A DNA stretch of 63,998 nucleotides, the filler included, from Aduncisulcus paluster (taxonomy: Eukaryota): NCBI GenBank assembly GCA_024181965.1. It is 16 parts of 16 records of this genome, joined end to end, with 100 filler letters (N's around TTAATTAATTAA, not from the genome) between each part and the next. Parts side by side here need not be neighbours in the genome. Positions count along the whole stretch, not along the records: positions 16,176 to 18,689 come from BQXS01000094.1; 15 more parts are not named here. One strand, given 5' to 3'. Within the stretch, counting starts at the first letter, position 1, and every line of letters begins with the position of its first letter. Below the pieces are notes generated by a model. That model was not told the DNA's origin and did no database searches. It worked only from the letters and a program-made list of their open reading frames with translations. The position numbers and the translations under genes are program-made. Below are positions 14,019-21,700 of this stretch, one piece after another.

Positions 14019-16075
14019 AATGTCCATCCATTGACGATATTGTGAAGGCTCAGGTTGACAAGTATAAAGGTGATTCACACATTTTGATAGAAAGCTATAT
14101 TTCATCCCATTCTATGATATCACCAGAAATAATGAGTTCTGTGGGTCTGAGTGATATTACACAAACCTTTACAATATCCTCTGCTGAAATTCCCCATGAA
14201 TCTTCCTCTTCCTCTTCTTCCTCCTCTTCCTCTTCTTCCTCTTCCTCTTCCTTTTCTTCATCCTTCTCTGAGATGTCACCCTCAGAGAGCGAACATTCAA
14301 GAGTGATTCATGAAGTAGAATATATGGATATTTGTAGATGTGAGCATTCTCATGATCGTGATAGCCAATATAAACGACAAGATATCAAGGGAATCGACCT
14401 AAGCAATATGAATAGAAATGAATGTGTCCTTAAGTCCTTTATTGATTCAATCAAAACAACCTCCTTTCAGTCTGCCATCATATCCCTTTTTAGAAGAAAA
14501 TCTCTTTATCTCAAGGCTATCTTTGATGAGTTCACCACTTCACTACCTGTCATCACATCAAATCGAGATCTCTTTGAGCTTTGTTTCGAATGTTTGTCGA
14601 TGTTCGTGAAGCATAAAGCTACAAAAGAAGACGGGACTCTGAAGGAAGATGATATTGAGATTATTCTTGATTTTTCCGTCATCAAGGAGATGATTGACTC
14701 TTTCTTACCTTCAATGATCAAAGTTGAAGCTGCTCTTAGAGAGAAAGAACAAGATGAAGAAGAACAAGATGAAGAAGAAGATGATGATGATGATGAAGAA
14801 ACTGAAGGAACTACCGTGAATTCCATCACAACAATGCTGTTTAGGATTCTCAATGTCGCAACAACAGATGAATCGTTATGTCCGACTGTTCTCGATCAAA
14901 GCTTTCGTCTTCTCTCTGACATTTTAAGTCTTGGTATATCTGAAACATTTGGAGATTCTTTTGTTAATGATATGTTCGGAATTTTTCGAAGTCTTGCATT
15001 TGCTGAGAATGATTCCACAAAGGATTCCCTTTTATCCCTTCTTTGCCCTCATATCTTACGTTGGATGAAGAAATATCCTGATAAGAAGTTCTTCATGCAT
15101 TGGTCCTGCATCTTGAAGAATATTACCAATAATGCTGATCAAAGTTTTAGTCCTCATGAAGGTCGTTCCTCTAAACTCTGGTTTGTGTTCCATCCTGTCA
15201 TACGTGTGATTAAGAATCCTGCTTTCAAAGATATTCCTGATGTAGATGCACTCATTCGATTTTTCTTGTTCTTCGCCCATCTAAGTTGTGTTCCTTCCCA
15301 AGCCATTGAAGTGCATGATTCTATTAAAGGTGATCTTCTTGATAGTTGGTTTATGATTGTAAAGAAGAAGAAAGAGGGAGGTGATAACTGGGGAACAATT
15401 CACTGGTCCAATCTCATCTCGATGCTCTCCACTGTTCCATCCATTGTTCCTCACATATCTCCCAAATATGATGCTGACATGGAATGGTGTTCAAAGAATG
15501 GAGGATGGGGTGATGATTATTCCAGATATATTCACAATTGTTATCCTTCTATCAAAAATGTATTCAATTTGGTCGAAATGATCAAACAATGCCCTGACTC
15601 TGAATCTACTTCTAGACTCTTCTATGAACATCGAGATGAGATCCTTTCGAACTTTCGTGAATGCCAATCCAAGAGTAAGATTGAAGAAAAAGATAAGAAA
15701 ATGATCACACTTTGTATTCAGTGTTTAAGATTGTTTGTTAATCATTTGTATTCCAGATCTGAAGTCTATCTCCCTATTCCAGTTCTGATTGATCTTGTTG
15801 ACACTTTTTTTGATCACTTGTCAAGAATTAAGAGATCCAAACCATTTCAGGCAGATTTTGATGAAGAGTATTTGTGTATTTGTGCAAATTATACATCAAA
15901 AGTTCACAAGGGATATATTGTGAGATTAGATTCATTCTATTCCAAAATTTCGGCAACTTTGCTCGACTTTTTCAAGAGAGGTACATCAATTTATTTCGAG
16001 GTCGAAATTGTTCAATTTTTTTTGTCTACACTCCAAAACATTTCTTTTGCCTCTTCCCCTGCCACTCGATCCTCT
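14019..16075 (+). CDS. Kinase-tail plus helical (ARM/HEAT-like) repeat protein, both ends truncated
   Basis: Begins CPSIDDIVKAQ..KYKGD (the family's kinase C-terminal motif), followed by the WSxLISMLSTVPS.VPHISPKYD..M.WC..NGG repeat unit. Confidence 0.8.
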
Positions 16076-16266
16076 NNNNNNNNNNNNNNNNNNNNNNNNN
16101 NNNNNNNNNNNNNNNNNNNTTAATTAATTAANNNNNNNNNNNNNNNNNNNNNNNNNNNNNNNNNNNNNNNNNNNNGACCGCATTATAGTTAGTTTGGCCA
16201 CATTTTGATCAAAATCATATCAAACTACCTTTACTATATAATTGACGCCAAAATTTTTCTGTTAAA

Positions 16267-17315
16267 ATGGTACAAACAAGAAGCCAATTGAAAAACGCCA
16301 ATATTGATAATAATGATGAAGAATTTGAAATTGTTGGTGATTTACAAACTGAACGCCATGATAGTGATGCCCACAGGGAAACTTTTTTTCGAGAATCCCA
16401 ACTCAGTTTCAGATTTCGGCAAAAAAATCTCCCAAGTCAGATTTCAAAATGATATCAATTTTGAATCAAAAGTATATCATAAATAAAATATTTAATAATA
16501 TAACCTTATAAAACTTAATACTTTATTTTTTTCCTTTAAATAACAATATATACTTTCTAATATGGCCACAAAAACTACTATCATTTTTGTATAAGAAAAT
16601 GGAAACGACTCATCATCAGCAACTCGTTAAGGTCAATAAGAACCTAAAAAGGGTCTATCAGTTAACAAAACGTAGGTTTTCTCAGATGGACACAATGATC
16701 CAGTCCACTATTCCAGCCCTCATAACTGGAGAGTTAACTGTTACTGCTGAGAACCTCGAAGCCTTCCTATCCACTGCTAAATCCTTCTTCACAAGCATCG
16801 AGCTCACTTCCAAAAAGATTGCTGTGAGATTACTCGATGCCCTCTGTCAGTATGAGTATGATAGAAAAGACGTGAAAAACAACCGCAGGTTGCCTGATAG
16901 CGAGAGGAAGAGGATAATATGTGAAGAACTTAGAGCTGATGAGAAGTTTAGAACTCGCATTGAGAGATGGCCAGATGTCAAAGTCCTTGAATTGTACACA
17001 TCCTACTTCGCCGTTCAGGCCAACAACAATCTTGCCCACATCAAGAAACATGAAAGTGCTCTCCGCTCCATGCTTGAAGAATGTACCGGCAGTTTCGCCA
17101 CGAGAGCGATTGTCTGTTCCATGCTACCCTACTACATTCCTAGTAGATGGAGAACAATTGTTCAGGAACAGTCTATTCTTCTCACACCGTCAACTCCCCA
17201 GGGTAGCCTCACTCTTATATCCCAGGGATCCGATTCTTCTGGCCAAGTTGACTCTCGCACTGGCCCACTGTTGCCTTCCGGTGTCGAAGAATCTTCATTT
17301 GAAGACCTCGAATAA
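16267..17315 (+). CDS. Orphan protein; main exon 16596-17315, probable upstream exon via intron 16472-16595, start uncertain
   Basis: 242-aa ORF; GTATAT...TATAAG phase-0 intron links the frame of ORF 16304 to it; the MVQTRSQ start at 16267 needs a +1 shift near 16380. Confidence 0.5.
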
Positions 17316-17392
17316 ACAATTACATTACAACTTTATTGTTTTGCTTCAGTAAATTGGAATTCGCTATTGTCTATGTAAATGTCGAATATGGT

Positions 17393-17968
17393 TTAAAATA
17401 TCTTTTTACTCAATTCAAGTGTTTTCAGCAACCTTTCGCGTGGAGTCTCACGGCATATACAGTAGAAACCACGGTGAACCAATTGTCCACAGCCGCGACA
17501 CTTATAGTACCAGCGTTTAAGCAAAGAACACTGCAGGCCATCCGGAAACCAGTTTAATAGTTTCCTGGCAAATACGGGCTCGGGGATGCGTATCTCGTAC
17601 GTCTTCAACCAAACTCCCCATTCAGCGAAGCTTAGTCCATATTTCGGACATCCACCCGCATTTATGGCCCTGGCACATCTACTCGCCACCTTCCCAAGGT
17701 GGCGCAACAAAGCCTCATCGTGCTTATTTTCACACGAATAAATAAACTTCATGGGTTCCCCGTGACACATTTCAACATGTCCACTCCATCTCACCAAGTC
17801 AGAACGACTTTCGAGGATGGTTTCCAGGGATGGGAAAACCGGCATCCTTATTATTTTCCGGCAAATTTTAGGGGGTGGAATATACCCTCTCATCTTTGCG
17901 ATGGCTGCGGCAGTAGTGCTAGTCTTTCTAGCACTTTTCACGGCGATTGGTCTACGAGGAGCAGCCAT
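17393..17968 (-). CDS. Orphan 191-aa protein with N-terminal histone H3-tail-like motif and C-terminal CxxC...CxC putative Zn finger
   Basis: MAAPRRPIAVKSARKTST vs H3 KAPRKQLATKAARKSAP; YKCRGCGQLVHRGFYCIC. Confidence 0.7.
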   Translation of the reverse strand: MAAPRRPIAVKSARKTSTTAAAIAKMRGYIPPPKICRKIIRMPVFPSLETILESRSDLVRWSGHVEMCHGEPMKFIYSCENKHDEALLRHLGKVASRCARAINAGGCPKYGLSFAEWGVWLKTYEIRIPEPVFARKLLNWFPDGLQCSLLKRWYYKCRGCGQLVHRGFYCICRETPRERLLKTLELSKKIF

Positions 17969-18285
17969 TCTCAGCGAAAGATAAACCCGTCTCTTATTCG
18001 TACCTAAATTACACATCACAAAATAAAACATGGCATTGACACTTAAACCTCTCTAGTTTATCCATCTTCTATTTTATTTTCTACCGGAAATTTTAAAATT
18101 CGCTCAGGCGACTAAAATGTTTCCAGCACCTCGTATAAAGAAAATTTACACATATGATCCGGGCGATAAATTATTGTTAAGACCTTTAACAAATATAACT
18201 ACTAATATTTTTTCGATTTGTGAAATGGACTCACGAAATTCGACGAACTAACCGAAATTCCTTTTTTTTGTTACGTTACAAAGCG

Positions 18286-18477
18286 ATGAAATCACCAAGG
18301 AAAGAAATAGCCTGTAAAAAGCCCCGTAAAACCAGCAGCACCCAGTCCGACCTGCAACATAGTGTTTTGTCAGGATATCATCAAGATGATGATTCTGAAA
18401 CATCTGGAAGCTACGAGTCCTCTTCCGACTCATATTCTGCCTCGGGAGAACAGCATAACCCGTCTCCCGAATTATGA
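18286..18477 (+). CDS. Small protein (or first exon) with N-terminal histone H3-tail-like motif and acidic/Ser-rich tail
   Basis: MKSPRKEIACKKPRKTSS vs H3 KAPRKQLATKAARKSAP; divergent from 17393..17968. Confidence 0.55.
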   Translation: MKSPRKEIACKKPRKTSSTQSDLQHSVLSGYHQDDDSETSGSYESSSDSYSASGEQHNPSPEL

Positions 18478-18789
18478 TCGGTATGGTTCGGAAACTCTGT
18501 TGACATTTTGAATAGTTCAACTCACAATAATAAAGCTTCTTATGGTTATAGATATATTAACTTAACTTTACTTAAGGTGACATTTAGCCATGCACTACTA
18601 TTCCGATCTGCAAAATGGACATATGGATCTCCGTGGACCAGTAGATGAGCATTGTCTACACACCCCCTTATGGCCTTTACATTTCTCATNNNNNNNNNNN
18701 NNNNNNNNNNNNNNNNNNNNNNNNNNNNNNNNNTTAATTAATTAANNNNNNNNNNNNNNNNNNNNNNNNNNNNNNNNNNNNNNNNNNNN

Positions 18790-21700
18790 GAAGCAGAAGA
18801 AAAGAGACCTAATGGAGTGAATTCCATCACTATGGCATTGTTTAGGATTATTAATGTGTGTATCAAGGAAGTTGTTTCTCTTCGAATCTCAGTCTTTCAC
18901 CGACTATCCACTATTCTCTCCAAAATATTATCGATCGGTCTCTCCAAGAGATTTGAGTCCGATTTCGTTGAGGATGCTCTTGGAACTTGTCGATCTCTTG
19001 CTTGTTCAAAAGATGATTCCACCAAGGATTCCCTCTTAGAGATCCTTCTTCCTCATATTCTGCCTTGGTTGAGGAAATATCCAGGTGAGACTTTCTTCTT
19101 CCACTGGATAAACATCCTGAAGAACATCACACTTGATAATGTTAATACCAACCCTCATAAAGGTCGATGCTTACAACTTTGGTTTGTATTCCCTCCCATT
19201 GTTGGTGCAGTGAAGGATAGCATTTCGAGAGGTCTTGGATTCAATTCTGCCACAAAAATTCGATGTATCATGTTCTTCTCCAATCTGTCCTGTATTCCCG
19301 ATTTTGCAGTAGAAATATTTAAAAACACAAAGCATATGATCGATAATTGGTTTATAATGGTCAAAGAGCAAGAAGAGGACAAACATAATTGGGGAATCAA
19401 ATATTGGTCCAAACTCATTTCCATGCTATCCACTTCTCCATCTCTTGTTCCTCACATTTCTCCTAAATATGATGCCGCTATGGCATGGTGTAAGGATAAC
19501 GGAGGTTGGGGCTCAGATTATTCTCGGTATTGCAAAAGGTGCACTTCTGATCATGTACAAAAGAAATTGGAATTATTGATAAACTACATTGAGAGATGTC
19601 CTTGTTTAGAGACATCCTCTAAATTATACCATGAGTATCGAATGAATATTCTATCTGTCTTTCTTGCATACCAATCTAGAAGTGAAATCGAAGAACATCG
19701 AATAGAGATTATTCTGTGTTGCCAGTGCTTAATTTGCTTTGCGAGACAAATTGATATTTCTAAAAATATCAGATTGCGTATTTCTGAATTTAATAATCTT
19801 ATTGACACTTTCATTGATCATTTATCAAGAGTTGAGTTGGTTTTGCAAGAAGATATTGATGAAGAGTATTGTGCGATTTGTGCTGGGTTTTCCTCCAAAA
19901 TCAAAGATGCACGAAACTCATTTTTTCCCAAGATTGCGCCAACTTTCCAACGAATTCTTGAGAGAGGTTGTAAGGAGAAGTTGGAAAGAAATTATCCAAT
20001 TAATTTGTTGTTGACACTGAAAAACATCTCCAATTCTAATTGTCCTTCGACTCTGTGCTCCATTTTTACCCTTATAAAACCGTATCTTGAAGATTGGTTG
20101 AGTTTATATCGAGATATCAGGTATTATGAAAATTGGATTGTTATCTTGTCGAAACTTACTTGGTCACCCACACTCCATGTTCCAAACAAGTCCATTTGTT
20201 CTGAAATTTGGCCATTCTGCTATCAAATTATTGATATGGCAAAGAAAAAGATTGTTGGTGGTAAAATTTTGGAGGGGGAAAATCGCTTTATTTTACGACT
20301 ATTTTCAAACTTCTGTTGTGATCCTTCTCATGCTATTGGAATATACAACAACACAAAACATCTTCTAAATGGCTGGCTGAAAGCTTTGAAGAAGAAAAGA
20401 CATTCTTGGGGTATCAAATATTTCTCTAACTTTGTTTCCATGCNNNNNNNNNNNNNNNNNNNNTGTTATCTTGTCGAAACTTACTTGGTCACCCACACTC
20501 CATGTTCCAAACAAGTCCATTTGTTCTGAAATTTGGCCATTCTGCTATCAAATTATTGATATGGCAAAGAAAAAGATTGTTGGTGGTAAAATTTTGGAGG
20601 GGGAAAATCGCTTTATTTTACGACTATTTTCAAACTTCTGTTGTGATCCTTCTCATGCTATTGGAATATACAACAACACAAAACATCTTCTAAATGGCTG
20701 GCTGAAAGCTTTGAAGAAGAAAAGACATTCTTGGGGTATCAAATATTTCTCTAACTTTGTTTCCATGCTATCAACAGTTCCTTCTCTTATTCATCTCTTG
20801 TCTCCAAAATTCGATGAAAGCATGGAATGGTGCAAGGATAATGGAGGATTACCCTTGGATTATTCACAATATTGTGACAATTGTAAAAATTATTTAAACC
20901 AAACGAAATTGGGAGATTTGCTAACTTCTATCAAGAGATGTCTTAATCCAGAAACCACTTCTGATCTGTACCATGAACATAGAAAATTCATTCTCTCTAT
21001 ATTCTTTGCATCACGATCCAGAGGTGAAATTGAAGAACATAAAATGGAGCTTGTATTGTGTTATCAATGCTTAAAAGGCTTTACTCATCATATTGCTTGT
21101 GGATCTTCAATCTTTCTACCTCGTATTGAGCTTGATAATCTCGTTGATTCTTTCATTGAGCATCTATCTCGAGTTGAAGAAGTATTGGGATCAGCTGTTC
21201 ATGAAGAGTACTGCCAGATCTGTGCTATTAATCCCCAAGTGCAGTTAAAACGGGGATCTTTCCTCGACAAGATTTCTTCTACTTTTCATCGAATACTTGA
21301 AAGAGGAACCCAGGAAAAGTTGGATACGGGGAGTATTCCAAAACATCTATTACAGACCCTCAAAAATATCTCCACATCTGAATCTTCATCAATTCGATCG
21401 TCCCTTTTCTCTCTCATTAAACCTTATATCAATGATTGGATGATTTTGTACCGAGATATTTGGTATTATGAAGAGTTTATTGTCATATTTGCAAACCTTA
21501 CTTGGTCTCTAAAATATGATTCCCCAGATAAAATAACATGTTCTGAATTATGGCCATTCTTTCGCCCTATTTTTGACGTTGTGAAGAAATATATTGTTGA
21601 GGATAAGATTGTTGAGAGGGAGTATTCCAAGGTTTTAGATTTATTCTCAAATTTATGCTGTGATCGCTTCCATGCTATTGAGATATATGAAAACACCAAG

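What the first reader, a model, noticed from the sequence alone, without database searches (positions are those of the whole stretch)
17393..18477. Divergent gene pair, each beginning with a histone H3 tail (K14-S28) mimic
Seen: two head-to-head orphan ORFs 317 bp apart start MAAPRRPIAVKSARKTST (17968, minus) and MKSPRKEIACKKPRKTSS (18286, plus). Both align without gaps to canonical H3 KAPRKQLATKAARKSAP, keeping P16-R17, the hydrophobic-Ala pair, K23 and R26-K27-S/T28. Neither has a histone fold, and they are otherwise unrelated to each other: one ends in a CxxC..CxC motif, the other is acidic/Ser-rich. From memory, Giardia H3 reads KAPRKTIARKAARKTAS, an even closer match; this should be verified. 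Known: histone mimicry occurs in influenza NS1 (ARSK) and SARS-CoV-2 ORF8 (ARKS), and EZHIP inhibits PRC2 through a K27M-like peptide. Inference: a co-regulated decoy cassette, probably of viral or transposon origin, that titrates H3K27/K9 writers or readers to escape silencing in a metamonad.
Basis: partly seen in the sequence, partly recalled or inferred. Interest (0 to 1): 0.9.

Follow-up and report, generated by a model that had tools for sequence, protein, structure and literature searches.

The report
Histone H3 tail copies on orphan genes
Two neighbouring genes of unknown function in the free-living protist Aduncisulcus paluster begin with a stretch that clearly copies the middle of the histone H3 tail in the version used by Giardia and its relatives, but whether the cell uses this copy is untested.

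Summary
The window is a string of small Aduncisulcus paluster contigs. Both ORFs lie on one 2,514-bp contig, 317 bp apart and head to head.

**H3 likeness.** Their first 18 residues are the two best matches to H3 K14-P30 among 60,323 peptides of the window. PDB searches with them return only histone H3. Identity to the Giardia tail is 10 of 17 (A) and 11 of 17 (B). In A the likeness runs on to about H3 residue 53. Neither ORF has a histone fold.

**New facts.**
- A is a divergent member of an A. paluster-only, many-copy family. All four annotated paralogs that keep their N-terminus start MARKT... and lack A's 11-residue extension.
- B is annotated as 69 aa with a short 5' exon, so its motif sits at residues 8-24.
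- Variant copies of both 5' ends keep the motif core.
- No RNA contig covers either gene.

**Reading.** I read these as H3-derived tail segments on non-histone genes in repeat-rich DNA, possibly acting as an import or enzyme-docking peptide. The "anti-silencing decoy of viral origin" idea is unsupported. E(z), the PRC2 enzyme, was not found in the metamonads one survey studied.

This scan noted H3-tail grafts before on other DNA (Naegleria, giant viruses).

The parts
16176..18689 (.). The real 2,514-bp contig that carries both genes. The rest of the window is other contigs joined by N44-TTAATTAATTAA-N44 linkers.
   Evidence: Searches show the linkers and contig limits. Searches give a longest contig of 2514 for both annotated proteins.
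17393..17968 (-). Gene A, 191 aa (P0001), annotated as a hypothetical protein of Aduncisulcus paluster. It has a basic N-terminus (pI 11.9 for residues 1-40) and a Cys/His-rich body.
17915..17965 (-). A residues 2-18, AAPRRPIAVKSARKTST. This is the H3 K14-P30-like core: 8 of 17 identical to canonical H3 and 10 of 17 to Giardia H3.
17846..17965 (-). The full stretch of A that aligns with H3 (A 2-41 to H3 14-53, register n+12), including K37, Y41, P43, R49, I51 and R53.
   Evidence: A 3-38; A 3-41; hhalign 3-39, P 0.006; A 19-41 in the fixed register, 38 of 20,000 shuffles reach the score; best tblastn hit of two real H3s in the window.
17396..17935 (-). A residues 12-191, the part homologous to the many-copy A. 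paluster family (P0002, P0008-P0013). The paralogs' start codon aligns with A's S12.
17453..17500 (-). C157-x2-C160 ... H165 ... C170-x-C172, a possible zinc-binding end, conserved in the paralogs.
   Evidence: Pfam gives only a sub-threshold CxxC match.
17969..18116 (.). 148-bp spacer between A's ATG and the ATG of B's annotated first exon. The part 18024-18107 is shared with many other copies in the DNA run.
   Evidence: (summed word depth 128,868 against about 1,150-1,200 for single contigs on A's 5' end).
18117..18132 (+). Annotated first exon of B (MFPAP + 1 base).
   Evidence: Exon 1 plus exon 2 translate exactly to P0014.
18133..18283 (+). Annotated 151-nt intron of B, GT..AG with a T-rich tract before the AG.
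18284..18477 (+).
18289..18339 (+). B residues 2-18 of the ORF (8-24 of the annotated protein), KSPRKEIACKKPRKTSS. This is the H3 K14-P30-like core: 8 of 17 identical to canonical H3 and 11 of 17 to Giardia H3.
18343..18474 (+). B's acidic, Ser-rich tail (pI 4.1). One variant contig differs here by small deletions that add up to 9 nt.
16599..17315 (+). Neighbouring 238-aa orphan ORF (P0003), itself one of 5 near-identical annotated copies. The block 16371-17013 is identical to an RNA-run contig that has other flanks.

Best explanation
Shown: two adjacent, lineage-specific genes of Aduncisulcus paluster carry, at or near their N-terminus and in the same register, a segment that copies histone H3 residues 14-28/30 in its fornicate (Giardia-like) form. 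In gene A the likeness continues to about H3 residue 53. The rest of each protein is not a histone. A's body is a Cys/His-rich domain of a many-copy, species-restricted family. B's body is a short acidic Ser-rich tail.

Inferred: the segment descends from the 5' part of an H3 gene that was joined to other coding sequence in repeat-rich, rearranging DNA. A and B share that origin, because both reading frames start at the H3 G13 position.

Inferred, weaker: the segment is kept because it works as a histone-tail-like peptide. All the residues that are modified or bound in real H3 are retained in all four sequences seen: R17, K18 (or R), K23, R26, K27 and S/T28. The peptide would therefore carry the proteins into the nucleus through the H3-type import signal, and/or make them substrates or competitors for enzymes that act on the H3 K18-S28 stretch. 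B, a basic H3-like head on an acidic tail, would be the simplest such competitor.
For: 1. The likeness is far beyond chance. A and B are the top 2 of 60,323 peptides in the window. Tail probabilities against the Giardia tail are 1.7e-10 and 4.9e-11 per position, or 3.7e-7 and 1.4e-7 under their own basic composition.
2. The PDB returns nothing but H3. For A's first 40 aa there are 78 hits, and all 60 listed are H3 or a Cse4 entry. For A's first 24 aa, 2 of 2 hits are H3. For whole A, 2 of 2 are H3. For B's first 30 aa, the 1 hit is Giardia H3.
3. The Ile at position 20 and Thr at position 28 are those of Giardia H3, a relative of the host.
4. A's likeness extends in the fixed register: for A 19-41, 38 of 20,000 shuffles reach the score, and none of the 77 other registers scores above 6 against 14.
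5. A and B share 10 same-residue codons, of which only 4 are identical, and both Arg codons come from different codon families. So the peptide, not the DNA, is what is alike.
6. Variant copies in the DNA run keep the core. A's variant has A3P, R6K, S12C, T16S and a one-codon deletion. B's variants have P13A and T16S.
7. The H3 import signal lies in residues 1-28, with K14 and K23 as the contacts for Kap123 (PMC5677370, passages). ARKT motifs of non-histone proteins are methylated like H3 ARKS (PMC2175347, passages).
Against: - The E-values of the database matches are marginal: 0.2-8 in the PDB, and hhalign P 0.006 and 0.02 with probabilities of 6% and 2%.
- The organism's own H3 was not seen.
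- The search for proteins of 105-335 aa that share words with A's first 40 residues found only A. So A is no recent copy of an annotated H3.
- The 4 annotated paralogs that keep their N-terminus (of 7) start MARKTYLQNAREAKRRGYIP and lack the 11-residue extension. They do not hit H3.
- All 4 coding differences between the two copies of A's 5' end change an amino acid, and all lie in codons 3-16. This does not look like strong constraint.
- A lacks K14 and has R at position 18.
- In the deposited model, B's motif is not at the very N-terminus.
- The structure model is useless (pLDDT 36).
Confidence: 0.42

Rival explanations
1. Dead relics. Fragments of an H3 gene's 5' end were shuffled into repeat-rich DNA. 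They happen to lie in open frames that the gene finder called, but they are not expressed or have no function. The likeness is history, not use.
For: - The contig is a mosaic of repeated blocks. Summed word depth is 40-150 times that of the single contigs over 17268-17687, 18024-18107 and 18444-18689, and there are joints to other arrangements (16401 to 17256; 18148 to 17393).
- The neighbouring ORF is also a mosaic copy.
- The paralogs lack the extension.
- All 4 coding differences in A's motif are non-synonymous.
- Both proteins are orphans.
Against: - Both frames stay open: 191 codons for A, and 63 or 69 for B.
- A and B keep the same 9 residues after the Met while their codons differ, including both Arg codon families. 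Neutral decay would not give this.
- The changes seen at modifiable residues are conservative (R6K, T16S), and one (P13A) moves towards H3.
- The indels seen are multiples of 3.
Confidence: 0.3
2. One reading: a co-regulated decoy cassette of viral or transposon origin that soaks up H3K27/K9 writers or readers so that the element escapes silencing.
For: - The head-to-head arrangement has a 148-317-bp spacer.
- A belongs to a many-copy family.
- The ARK[ST] core is kept.
- Viral and cellular precedents exist. For ORF8 and NOP16 I saw only the search listing and the start of the abstract. For G9a I read passages.
Against: - No mobile-element or viral hallmark was found.
- E(z) was not found in the studied Metamonada (PMC9018016).
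- The many-copy paralogs, which would need the protection most, lack the motif.
- K27 is not replaced, as it is in EZHIP-type inhibitors.
Confidence: 0.1
3. No link to H3 at all. The two genes share a basic N-terminal signal (for instance an ordinary nuclear or nucleolar targeting peptide) through a local duplication, and its likeness to H3 is coincidence.
For: - The N-termini are K/R/A/S/T/P-rich, a composition in which H3-like strings are about 1,000 times more likely (3e-6 against 6e-9).
- The paralog start MARKT... shows that ARKT arises in this family without the rest.
Against: - Even under their own composition the probabilities are 1e-7 to 4e-7 against the Giardia tail.
- Shuffles of the same residues reach the score 8-20 times per million.
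- The lineage-specific I20 and T28 are matched.
- A's likeness continues for 23 more residues in register.
- Only H3 is returned from 177,635 PDB sequences.
Confidence: 0.1

Closest known systems
Histone H3 itself (Giardia lamblia H3, PDB 7D69 chain A; canonical H3.3/H3.2 in the PDB)
   Same: Residues 14-28/30 align without gaps: P16, R17, K18, I/L20, A21, K23, R26, K27 and S/T28. In A the alignment also covers K37, Y41, P43, R49, I51 and R53.
   Different: H3 residues 1-13 are absent. There is no histone fold. A continues into a Cys/His-rich family domain, and B into an acidic Ser-rich tail.
Short histone mimics in non-histone proteins: the G9a ARKT automethylation motif (PMC2175347, passages), SARS-CoV-2 ORF8 ARKS and NOP16 (search listing and start of abstract only), influenza NS1 ARSK (recalled)
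   Same: An ARK[ST] core in a non-histone protein. G9a's motif is literally ARKT, as in A.
   Different: Those mimics are 4-8 residues long and mostly copy K4 or K9. Here 17 residues (A: about 40) copy the K14-S28 stretch, and no binding or modification is known.
H3 N-terminal mimicry proteins (H3TMs, e.g. VRK1; PMC8166343, abstract)
   Same: Cellular non-histone proteins whose N-terminus imitates H3.
   Different: H3TMs imitate A1-R2-T3-K4 after Met removal and bind PHD fingers. A and B imitate residues 14-28. The paralogs of A start M-A-R-K-T, which is not ARTK.
EZHIP / H3K27M-type PRC2 inhibitors
   Same: A K27-region-like peptide in a non-histone protein.
   Different: Those carry Met in place of K27, whereas A and B keep Lys. 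E(z) was not found in the studied Metamonada (PMC9018016).
Kap123/Importin-4 histone H3 import signal (PMC5677370, passages)
   Same: B has K at the K14 and K23 positions with the same 8-residue spacing. A has K23.
   Different: The published consensus wants small residues (Gly/Ala) on both sides of the first Lys. B has Met/Ser there, and A has no first Lys. Nothing was tested.
Earlier notes of this scan: H3-tail grafts in Naegleria/Willaertia proteins and H3 12-23/12-27 copies on giant-virus HMG-box proteins
   Same: A host-type H3 tail segment on non-histone proteins. The viral cases copy nearly the same stretch (residues 12-27).
   Different: Those copies are reported as exact or nearly so and conserved within families. 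Here identity is 10-11 of 17 and the paralog family lacks the segment. These are unchecked AI notes and I did not re-test them.

Membership tests
Core histone H3 (Pfam PF00125, histone fold) | Histone fold (alpha1-L1-alpha2-L2-alpha3) after the tail | tested here: not met
   Pfam gives no histone match for A, A 1-125, P0008 or B, even at E up to 10. hhalign of family alignment A2 against 10 natural H3s (A4) gives probability 0.1%. For A 42-122 in the H3 register, 1,040 of 20,000 shuffles reach the score and other registers score higher. The family profile finds 0 hits in the PDB.
Core histone H3 | N-terminal tail sequence | tested here: inconclusive
   Residues 14-30 (A: 14-53) are clearly alike. 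Residues 1-13 are absent, and the in-frame sequence upstream of both ATGs is not H3-like on reading.
Histone mimic (short linear motif in a non-histone protein) | H3-like motif that includes the modifiable Lys, in a protein that is not a histone | tested here: met
   ARKT (A) and PRKT (B; ARKS in a variant) lie within a 17-residue H3-like stretch. Neither protein is a histone.
Histone mimic | Bound or modified by histone writers, readers or importins | not testable with these tools
   No partner sequence of this organism was at hand, and I ran no complex prediction.
Histone mimic | Motif conserved among homologous copies | tested here: inconclusive
   The motif is kept in the close variant copies seen in the DNA run. 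Its first 11 residues are absent from all 4 annotated paralogs that include an N-terminus; the other 3 of 7 are cut short.
EZHIP / K27M-like PRC2 inhibitor | Lys27 position replaced by Met (or Ile) | tested here: not met
   Lys is kept at that position in A, B and both variants.
EZHIP / K27M-like PRC2 inhibitor | Host has PRC2 | not tested
   I have only the literature: E(z) was not identified in the studied Metamonada (PMC9018016, passages). The species list is in supplements that I could not open.
H3TM (H3 N-terminal mimicry proteins) | Mature N-terminus A-R-x-K after Met removal | tested here: not met
   A starts MAAPRR, and B starts MKSPRK or MFPAPPMK. The paralogs start MARKT.
Kap123-type H3 import signal | small-K-small, 6 or more residues, then K (PMC5677370) | tested here: inconclusive
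   B has M-K-S then 8 residues then K, so the spacing is met but the flanks are not. A has no Lys at the first position.
Transposon or virus-derived cassette | Transposase, integrase or capsid gene, terminal repeats, or relatives in viral sequence | tested here: not met
   No Pfam domain was found in A, B or the 238-aa neighbour. There are no terminal inverted repeats on the contig. IMG/VR holds no relatives of P0008 or of the neighbour family. The contig is only 2.5 kb, so a larger element cannot be excluded.

The most novel reading that the evidence does not exclude
A. paluster keeps a low-copy, head-to-head gene pair whose products are true stand-ins for the K14-S28 stretch of its own H3 tail. 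The small acidic-tailed B would be a soluble competitor. A would be a tail-bearing zinc-binding protein. Together they would tune import, acetylation or phosphorylation of H3, or mark the chromatin of the roughly hundred-copy family from which A arose. This would be an endogenous, long histone-tail mimic in a deep-branching eukaryote whose group appears to lack PRC2.
Probability: 0.12. Interest if true: 0.8.

Novelty: new variant of a known kind. Interest (0 to 1): 0.45.

Why it matters
Histone mimicry is known mainly as 4-8-residue motifs in viral and mammalian proteins. A host-type copy of 17-40 residues of the internal H3 tail, on two orphan genes of a free-living relative of Giardia, would show two things. 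Pieces of histone genes are recycled into new proteins in protists. The K14-S28 stretch (import, K18/K23/K27 acetylation, S28 phosphorylation) can be a portable module.

It also gives a concrete test object for chromatin biology in fornicates, where little is known and where PRC2 seems absent. If the genes turn out to be silent relics, the case is only a neat example of gene-fragment shuffling in repeat-rich DNA.

Tried and rejected
- **Whole genome.** None is held for this window, so no proteome-wide scan was possible.
- **The organism's own H3.** I could not fetch it. The word-based search with A's first 40 residues found only A. A 23-residue Giardia H3 piece was too short for the tool. A handle search was not possible.
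- **RNA.** No RNA holder is listed for the contig. The run guessed to be RNA (X2) gave contigs only over 16189-17013 and 18599-18636, and none over A or B. This says nothing about expression.
- **Structure.** The AlphaFold2 model of A has pLDDT 36, so I ran no fold search. The ESM Atlas gave no usable hit for P0008.
- **Remote homologs of A.** Only its own paralog cluster appears among 1.84 billion representatives.
- **Metagenome scan.** It gave 3 loci. Two are bacterial UvrD-like helicases that share the 8-residue search pattern CDNEHDEA, and one is an out-of-frame chance match. I rejected all three as relatives.
- **Full divergent H3 idea.** By eye, A seemed to line up with the H3 fold (LVR, EA.L..L, CA). 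I tested this against real H3s and rejected it.
- **Inverted DNA repeat between the two 5' ends.** None was found. The upstream regions are no more alike than shuffles.
- **Other scans of the contig.** Rfam gave 0 matches. The tandem-repeat scan found only a 19-nt TTAAC run.
- **H3 remnant in other frames next to B.** None was seen on reading.
Full report
**What the window is.** The 63,998 bases are 16 separate contigs joined by N44-TTAATTAATTAA-N44 linkers. Protein matches name the organism as Aduncisulcus paluster, a free-living fornicate metamonad. Its draft genome is highly fragmented: 25,863 contigs, N50 4.6 kb, 15,316 predicted proteins, BUSCO 40% (PMC9933649, whole text read). The finding lies wholly on one real contig, 16176-18689 (2,514 bp). 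The head-to-head arrangement is therefore not an artefact of the joining.

**The observation.** Their first 18 residues agree at 10 positions without gaps. tblastn finds each with the other, at E 7e-4 within the window.

Scored without gaps against canonical H3 K14-P30, A and B reach 43 and 44. They are the top two of 60,323 stop-free 17-mers in all six frames; the third scores 30. Exact tail probabilities are 6e-9 and 3e-9 per position under the amino-acid composition of the window's 33 long ORFs. They are 3e-6 and 2e-6 under the basic composition of the two N-termini themselves. Shuffling the same 17 residues reaches the score 20 and 8 times in a million.

**Comparison with solved structures.**
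- A's first 40 residues against 177,635 distinct PDB sequences gave 78 matches at E up to 10. All 60 listed are histone H3 variants or one Cse4 entry, with E 0.2-1.1.
- A's first 24 residues gave two hits, a histone H3.3 chain (7ux9_E) and Giardia H3.
- Whole A gave two hits, both H3.
- B's first 30 residues gave exactly one hit, chain A of 7D69, at E 0.6. This is the Giardia lamblia nucleosome (PMC8421212, passages).
- Whole B gave none.

Against it, A has 10 of 17 and B 11 of 17 identities, with tail probabilities of 1.7e-10 and 4.9e-11, or 3.7e-7 and 1.4e-7 under their own composition. The two residues that set Giardia H3 apart from canonical H3 in this stretch (Ile for L20, Thr for S28) are the ones that A and B have. 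Each E-value is marginal on its own. The specificity and the lineage match are what make chance an unlikely explanation.

**How far the likeness goes.** To obtain real H3 sequences, I back-translated a 12-residue H3 peptide shown and scanned IMG/VR. This gave 20 loci. I aligned 10 ORFs of 134-157 aa that start MARTK (alignment A4). I left out the other 10 because of odd lengths, N-terminal extensions or duplication.

hhalign of A against A4 aligns A 3-39 with H3 16-52 (P 0.006, probability 6%). B aligns only over 16 columns (P 0.02).

In the register fixed by the tail match (A residue n to H3 residue n+12):
- A 19-41 scores 14 with 5 identities. 38 of 20,000 shuffles reach this, and none of the 77 other registers scores above 6.
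- A 42-122 is not significant. 1,040 of 20,000 shuffles reach its score, and other registers score better.

Pfam finds no histone domain. The family profile against H3 gives probability 0.1%. So A resembles H3 from about residue 14 to 53, meaning the tail and the start of the first helix, and not beyond. B resembles it from residue 14 to 30. Neither is a histone or a decayed whole H3 gene. With two real H3s as tblastn queries, A's start is the best hit in the whole window (E 0.013 and 0.058). No true H3 gene is present in the window.

**What A is.** A is annotated exactly as the 191-aa protein. Its only relatives among 5.8 billion clustered proteins and 1.84 billion representatives are one cluster of 7 A. 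paluster proteins. Each sits on its own contig of 605-974 bp.

Aligned with A, these paralogs are 64-92% identical. Four of them include an N-terminus (P0008, P0013, P0011, P0010), and all four start MARKTYLQNAREAKRRGYIP.... Their Met aligns with A's S12. The other three are cut short. So the family keeps ARKT, K, Y and P in the H3 register (score 16, P 5e-4 in the fixed register), but it lacks A's AAPRRPIAVKS. Alone, the paralogs do not hit H3.

In the DNA run X1, 774 short contigs lie on the contig at 80% likeness or more. The summed word depth over A's 3' half (17268-17687) is about 97,000-181,000. Single contigs over A's 5' end have about 1,150-1,200, and up to 15 different contigs share a variant letter. 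The tool warns that this is no copy number. Together with the seven separate annotated copies, I read it as many near-copies.

One contig joins 18148, through 30 other letters, to 17393, which suggests head-to-tail units of about 0.8 kb. A's C-terminal CxxC...CxC is conserved in the family. The structure model is useless (pLDDT 36).

**What B is.** B has no relatives. It is annotated on the same contig as a 69-aa protein (ADUPG1_000272). Slicing 18117-18132 plus 18284-18477 reproduces that protein exactly. The implied 151-nt intron has GT..AG and a T-rich tract. In that model the motif sits at residues 8-24, behind MFPAPPM. Whether the model rests on spliced reads I cannot tell. B's head is basic (pI 10.6) and its tail acidic (pI 4.1).

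**Variation.** The DNA run holds a second version of A's 5' end (17871-18004) at about the same depth as the first. It has five substitutions and a 3-nt deletion. In the protein these are A3P, R6K, S12C, T16S and the loss of one residue near position 23. The fifth substitution lies upstream of the ATG.

For B, variant contigs show a silent change in codon 9, P13A (2 contigs), T16S, S26R, V27L, and deletions summing to 9 nt in the Ser-rich tail. Eight further differences on the contig were not listed.

The positions equivalent to P16, R17, I20, A21, K23, R26 and K27 are unchanged in all four sequences. Position 18 is K or R, and position 28 is T or S. On the other hand, all four coding changes in A are non-synonymous and fall within the motif, so constraint is not strong.

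A and B share 10 same-residue codons in their first 18. Only 4 of these codons are identical, and both arginines use different codon families. Overall nucleotide identity is 29 of 54. No inverted DNA repeat links the two 5' ends. This pattern fits an old shared origin with selection on the peptide, or capture from different H3 genes. It does not fit a recent neutral duplication.

**Surroundings.** The 238-aa neighbour (16599-17315) is another orphan with 5 near-identical annotated copies. The block 16371-17013 is identical to a 1,975-nt contig of run X2 (guessed to be RNA). Beyond 17013 that contig reads like the paralog P0007, not like the window. No X2 contig covers A or B, and this carries no weight either way.

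There are no Pfam domains, no terminal inverted repeats, no Rfam match, and no relatives in IMG/VR. Three metagenome loci are chance hits in bacterial helicases. The adjacency of A and B crosses the stretch 18024-18107, which is shared with many copies. A long-read check is therefore desirable.

**Mechanism.** What is shown is a real, fornicate-type H3 14-28 segment, in the same register, on two neighbouring non-histone genes.

I infer that it descends from the 5' part of an H3 gene. Two things point this way: A's likeness runs on into a region that no known reader motif needs, and both frames begin at the H3 G13 position.

I further infer, with less confidence, that it is used as a histone-tail-like peptide. 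Published work places the H3 nuclear import signal in residues 1-28, with K14 and K23 as the contacts for Kap123 (PMC5677370, passages). B has both lysines at the right spacing, and A has only the second. ARKT motifs in non-histone proteins are methylated like H3 ARKS and then bind HP1 (PMC2175347, passages).

E(z) was not identified in the Metamonada examined in PMC9018016 (passages; the species list is in supplements I could not open), and K27 is not replaced as it is in EZHIP.

**Comparison and novelty.** Known histone mimics are short and mostly copy K4 or K9. H3TMs copy the extreme N-terminus (PMC8166343, abstract). A full-text search for 'histone mimic' with 'Giardia' found two papers, and by title and abstract start neither describes such a protein. 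A wider search with protist and metamonad terms listed none among its top 12 that holds the phrase.

Earlier notes of this scan report H3-tail grafts in Naegleria and in giant viruses, the latter copying residues 12-27. I did not re-test these notes. I rate this case a new variant of a known kind. It is an internal-tail copy of 17-40 residues, paired, in a metamonad, with its function open.

**Verdict.** Interest is moderate (0.45). The sequence signal is solid and lineage-matched. Against that, the genes are orphans in repeat-rich DNA, the paralog family lacks the motif, and neither expression nor binding is shown.

Noticed in passing
whole window; linkers at e.g. 16076-16175 and 18690-18789: The window is not one piece of chromosome. 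It is 16 contigs (1.0-10.6 kb) joined by N44-TTAATTAATTAA-N44, plus 20-N gaps inside scaffolds. Any finding that spans a linker would be an artefact.
   Followed up: yes
14114-16075 (+), 18832-20529 (+), 20561-22861 (+): At least the first two of these long ORFs, on different contigs, are paralogs. They share stretches such as ...LISMLST.PS.VPHISPKYDA.M.WC..NGGWG.DYSRY... Pfam gives no match above threshold. This is a large orphan family of A. paluster.
   Followed up: no
16371-17013 (+): This block, which holds the first 138 codons of the 238-aa ORF, is identical to a 1,975-nt contig of the run guessed to be RNA. Beyond 17013 that contig continues as in paralog P0007 (...DLPWLAYKQ stop). The window's ORF is therefore a mosaic copy, and the transcript may belong to another locus.
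   Followed up: partly
17393 / 18148; 16401 / 17256: Contigs of the DNA run join 18148 to 17393 through 30 other letters, and join 16401 directly to 17256. Other copies of this DNA are arranged differently: possible head-to-tail units of about 0.8 kb, and copies without the 238-aa ORF.
   Followed up: no
17683-17721 (+), antisense to gene A: This frame reads SPPSQGGATKPHR, which is 8 of 13 identical to H3 residues 29-41 of a real H3 (tblastn E 0.34-1.1 with relaxed settings). The frame upstream is not H3-like and a stop follows 7 codons later. It is probably chance.
   Followed up: partly
L004-L023 (IMG/VR contigs): Twenty viral or giant-virus-bin contigs carry H3 genes with a canonical HRYRPGTVALRE. 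In the 10 that I aligned, the tail is canonical up to about residue 23. None keeps the full K23..RK[ST]28 pattern; they read for example ATMAARKAAP, AARTSAP and ASRMTAP.
   Followed up: no
L001 5001-5117; L003 1347-1457: Bacterial UvrD-like helicases share the 8-residue string CDNEHDEA with the A family. This was the search pattern itself and is not evidence of kinship.
   Followed up: yes
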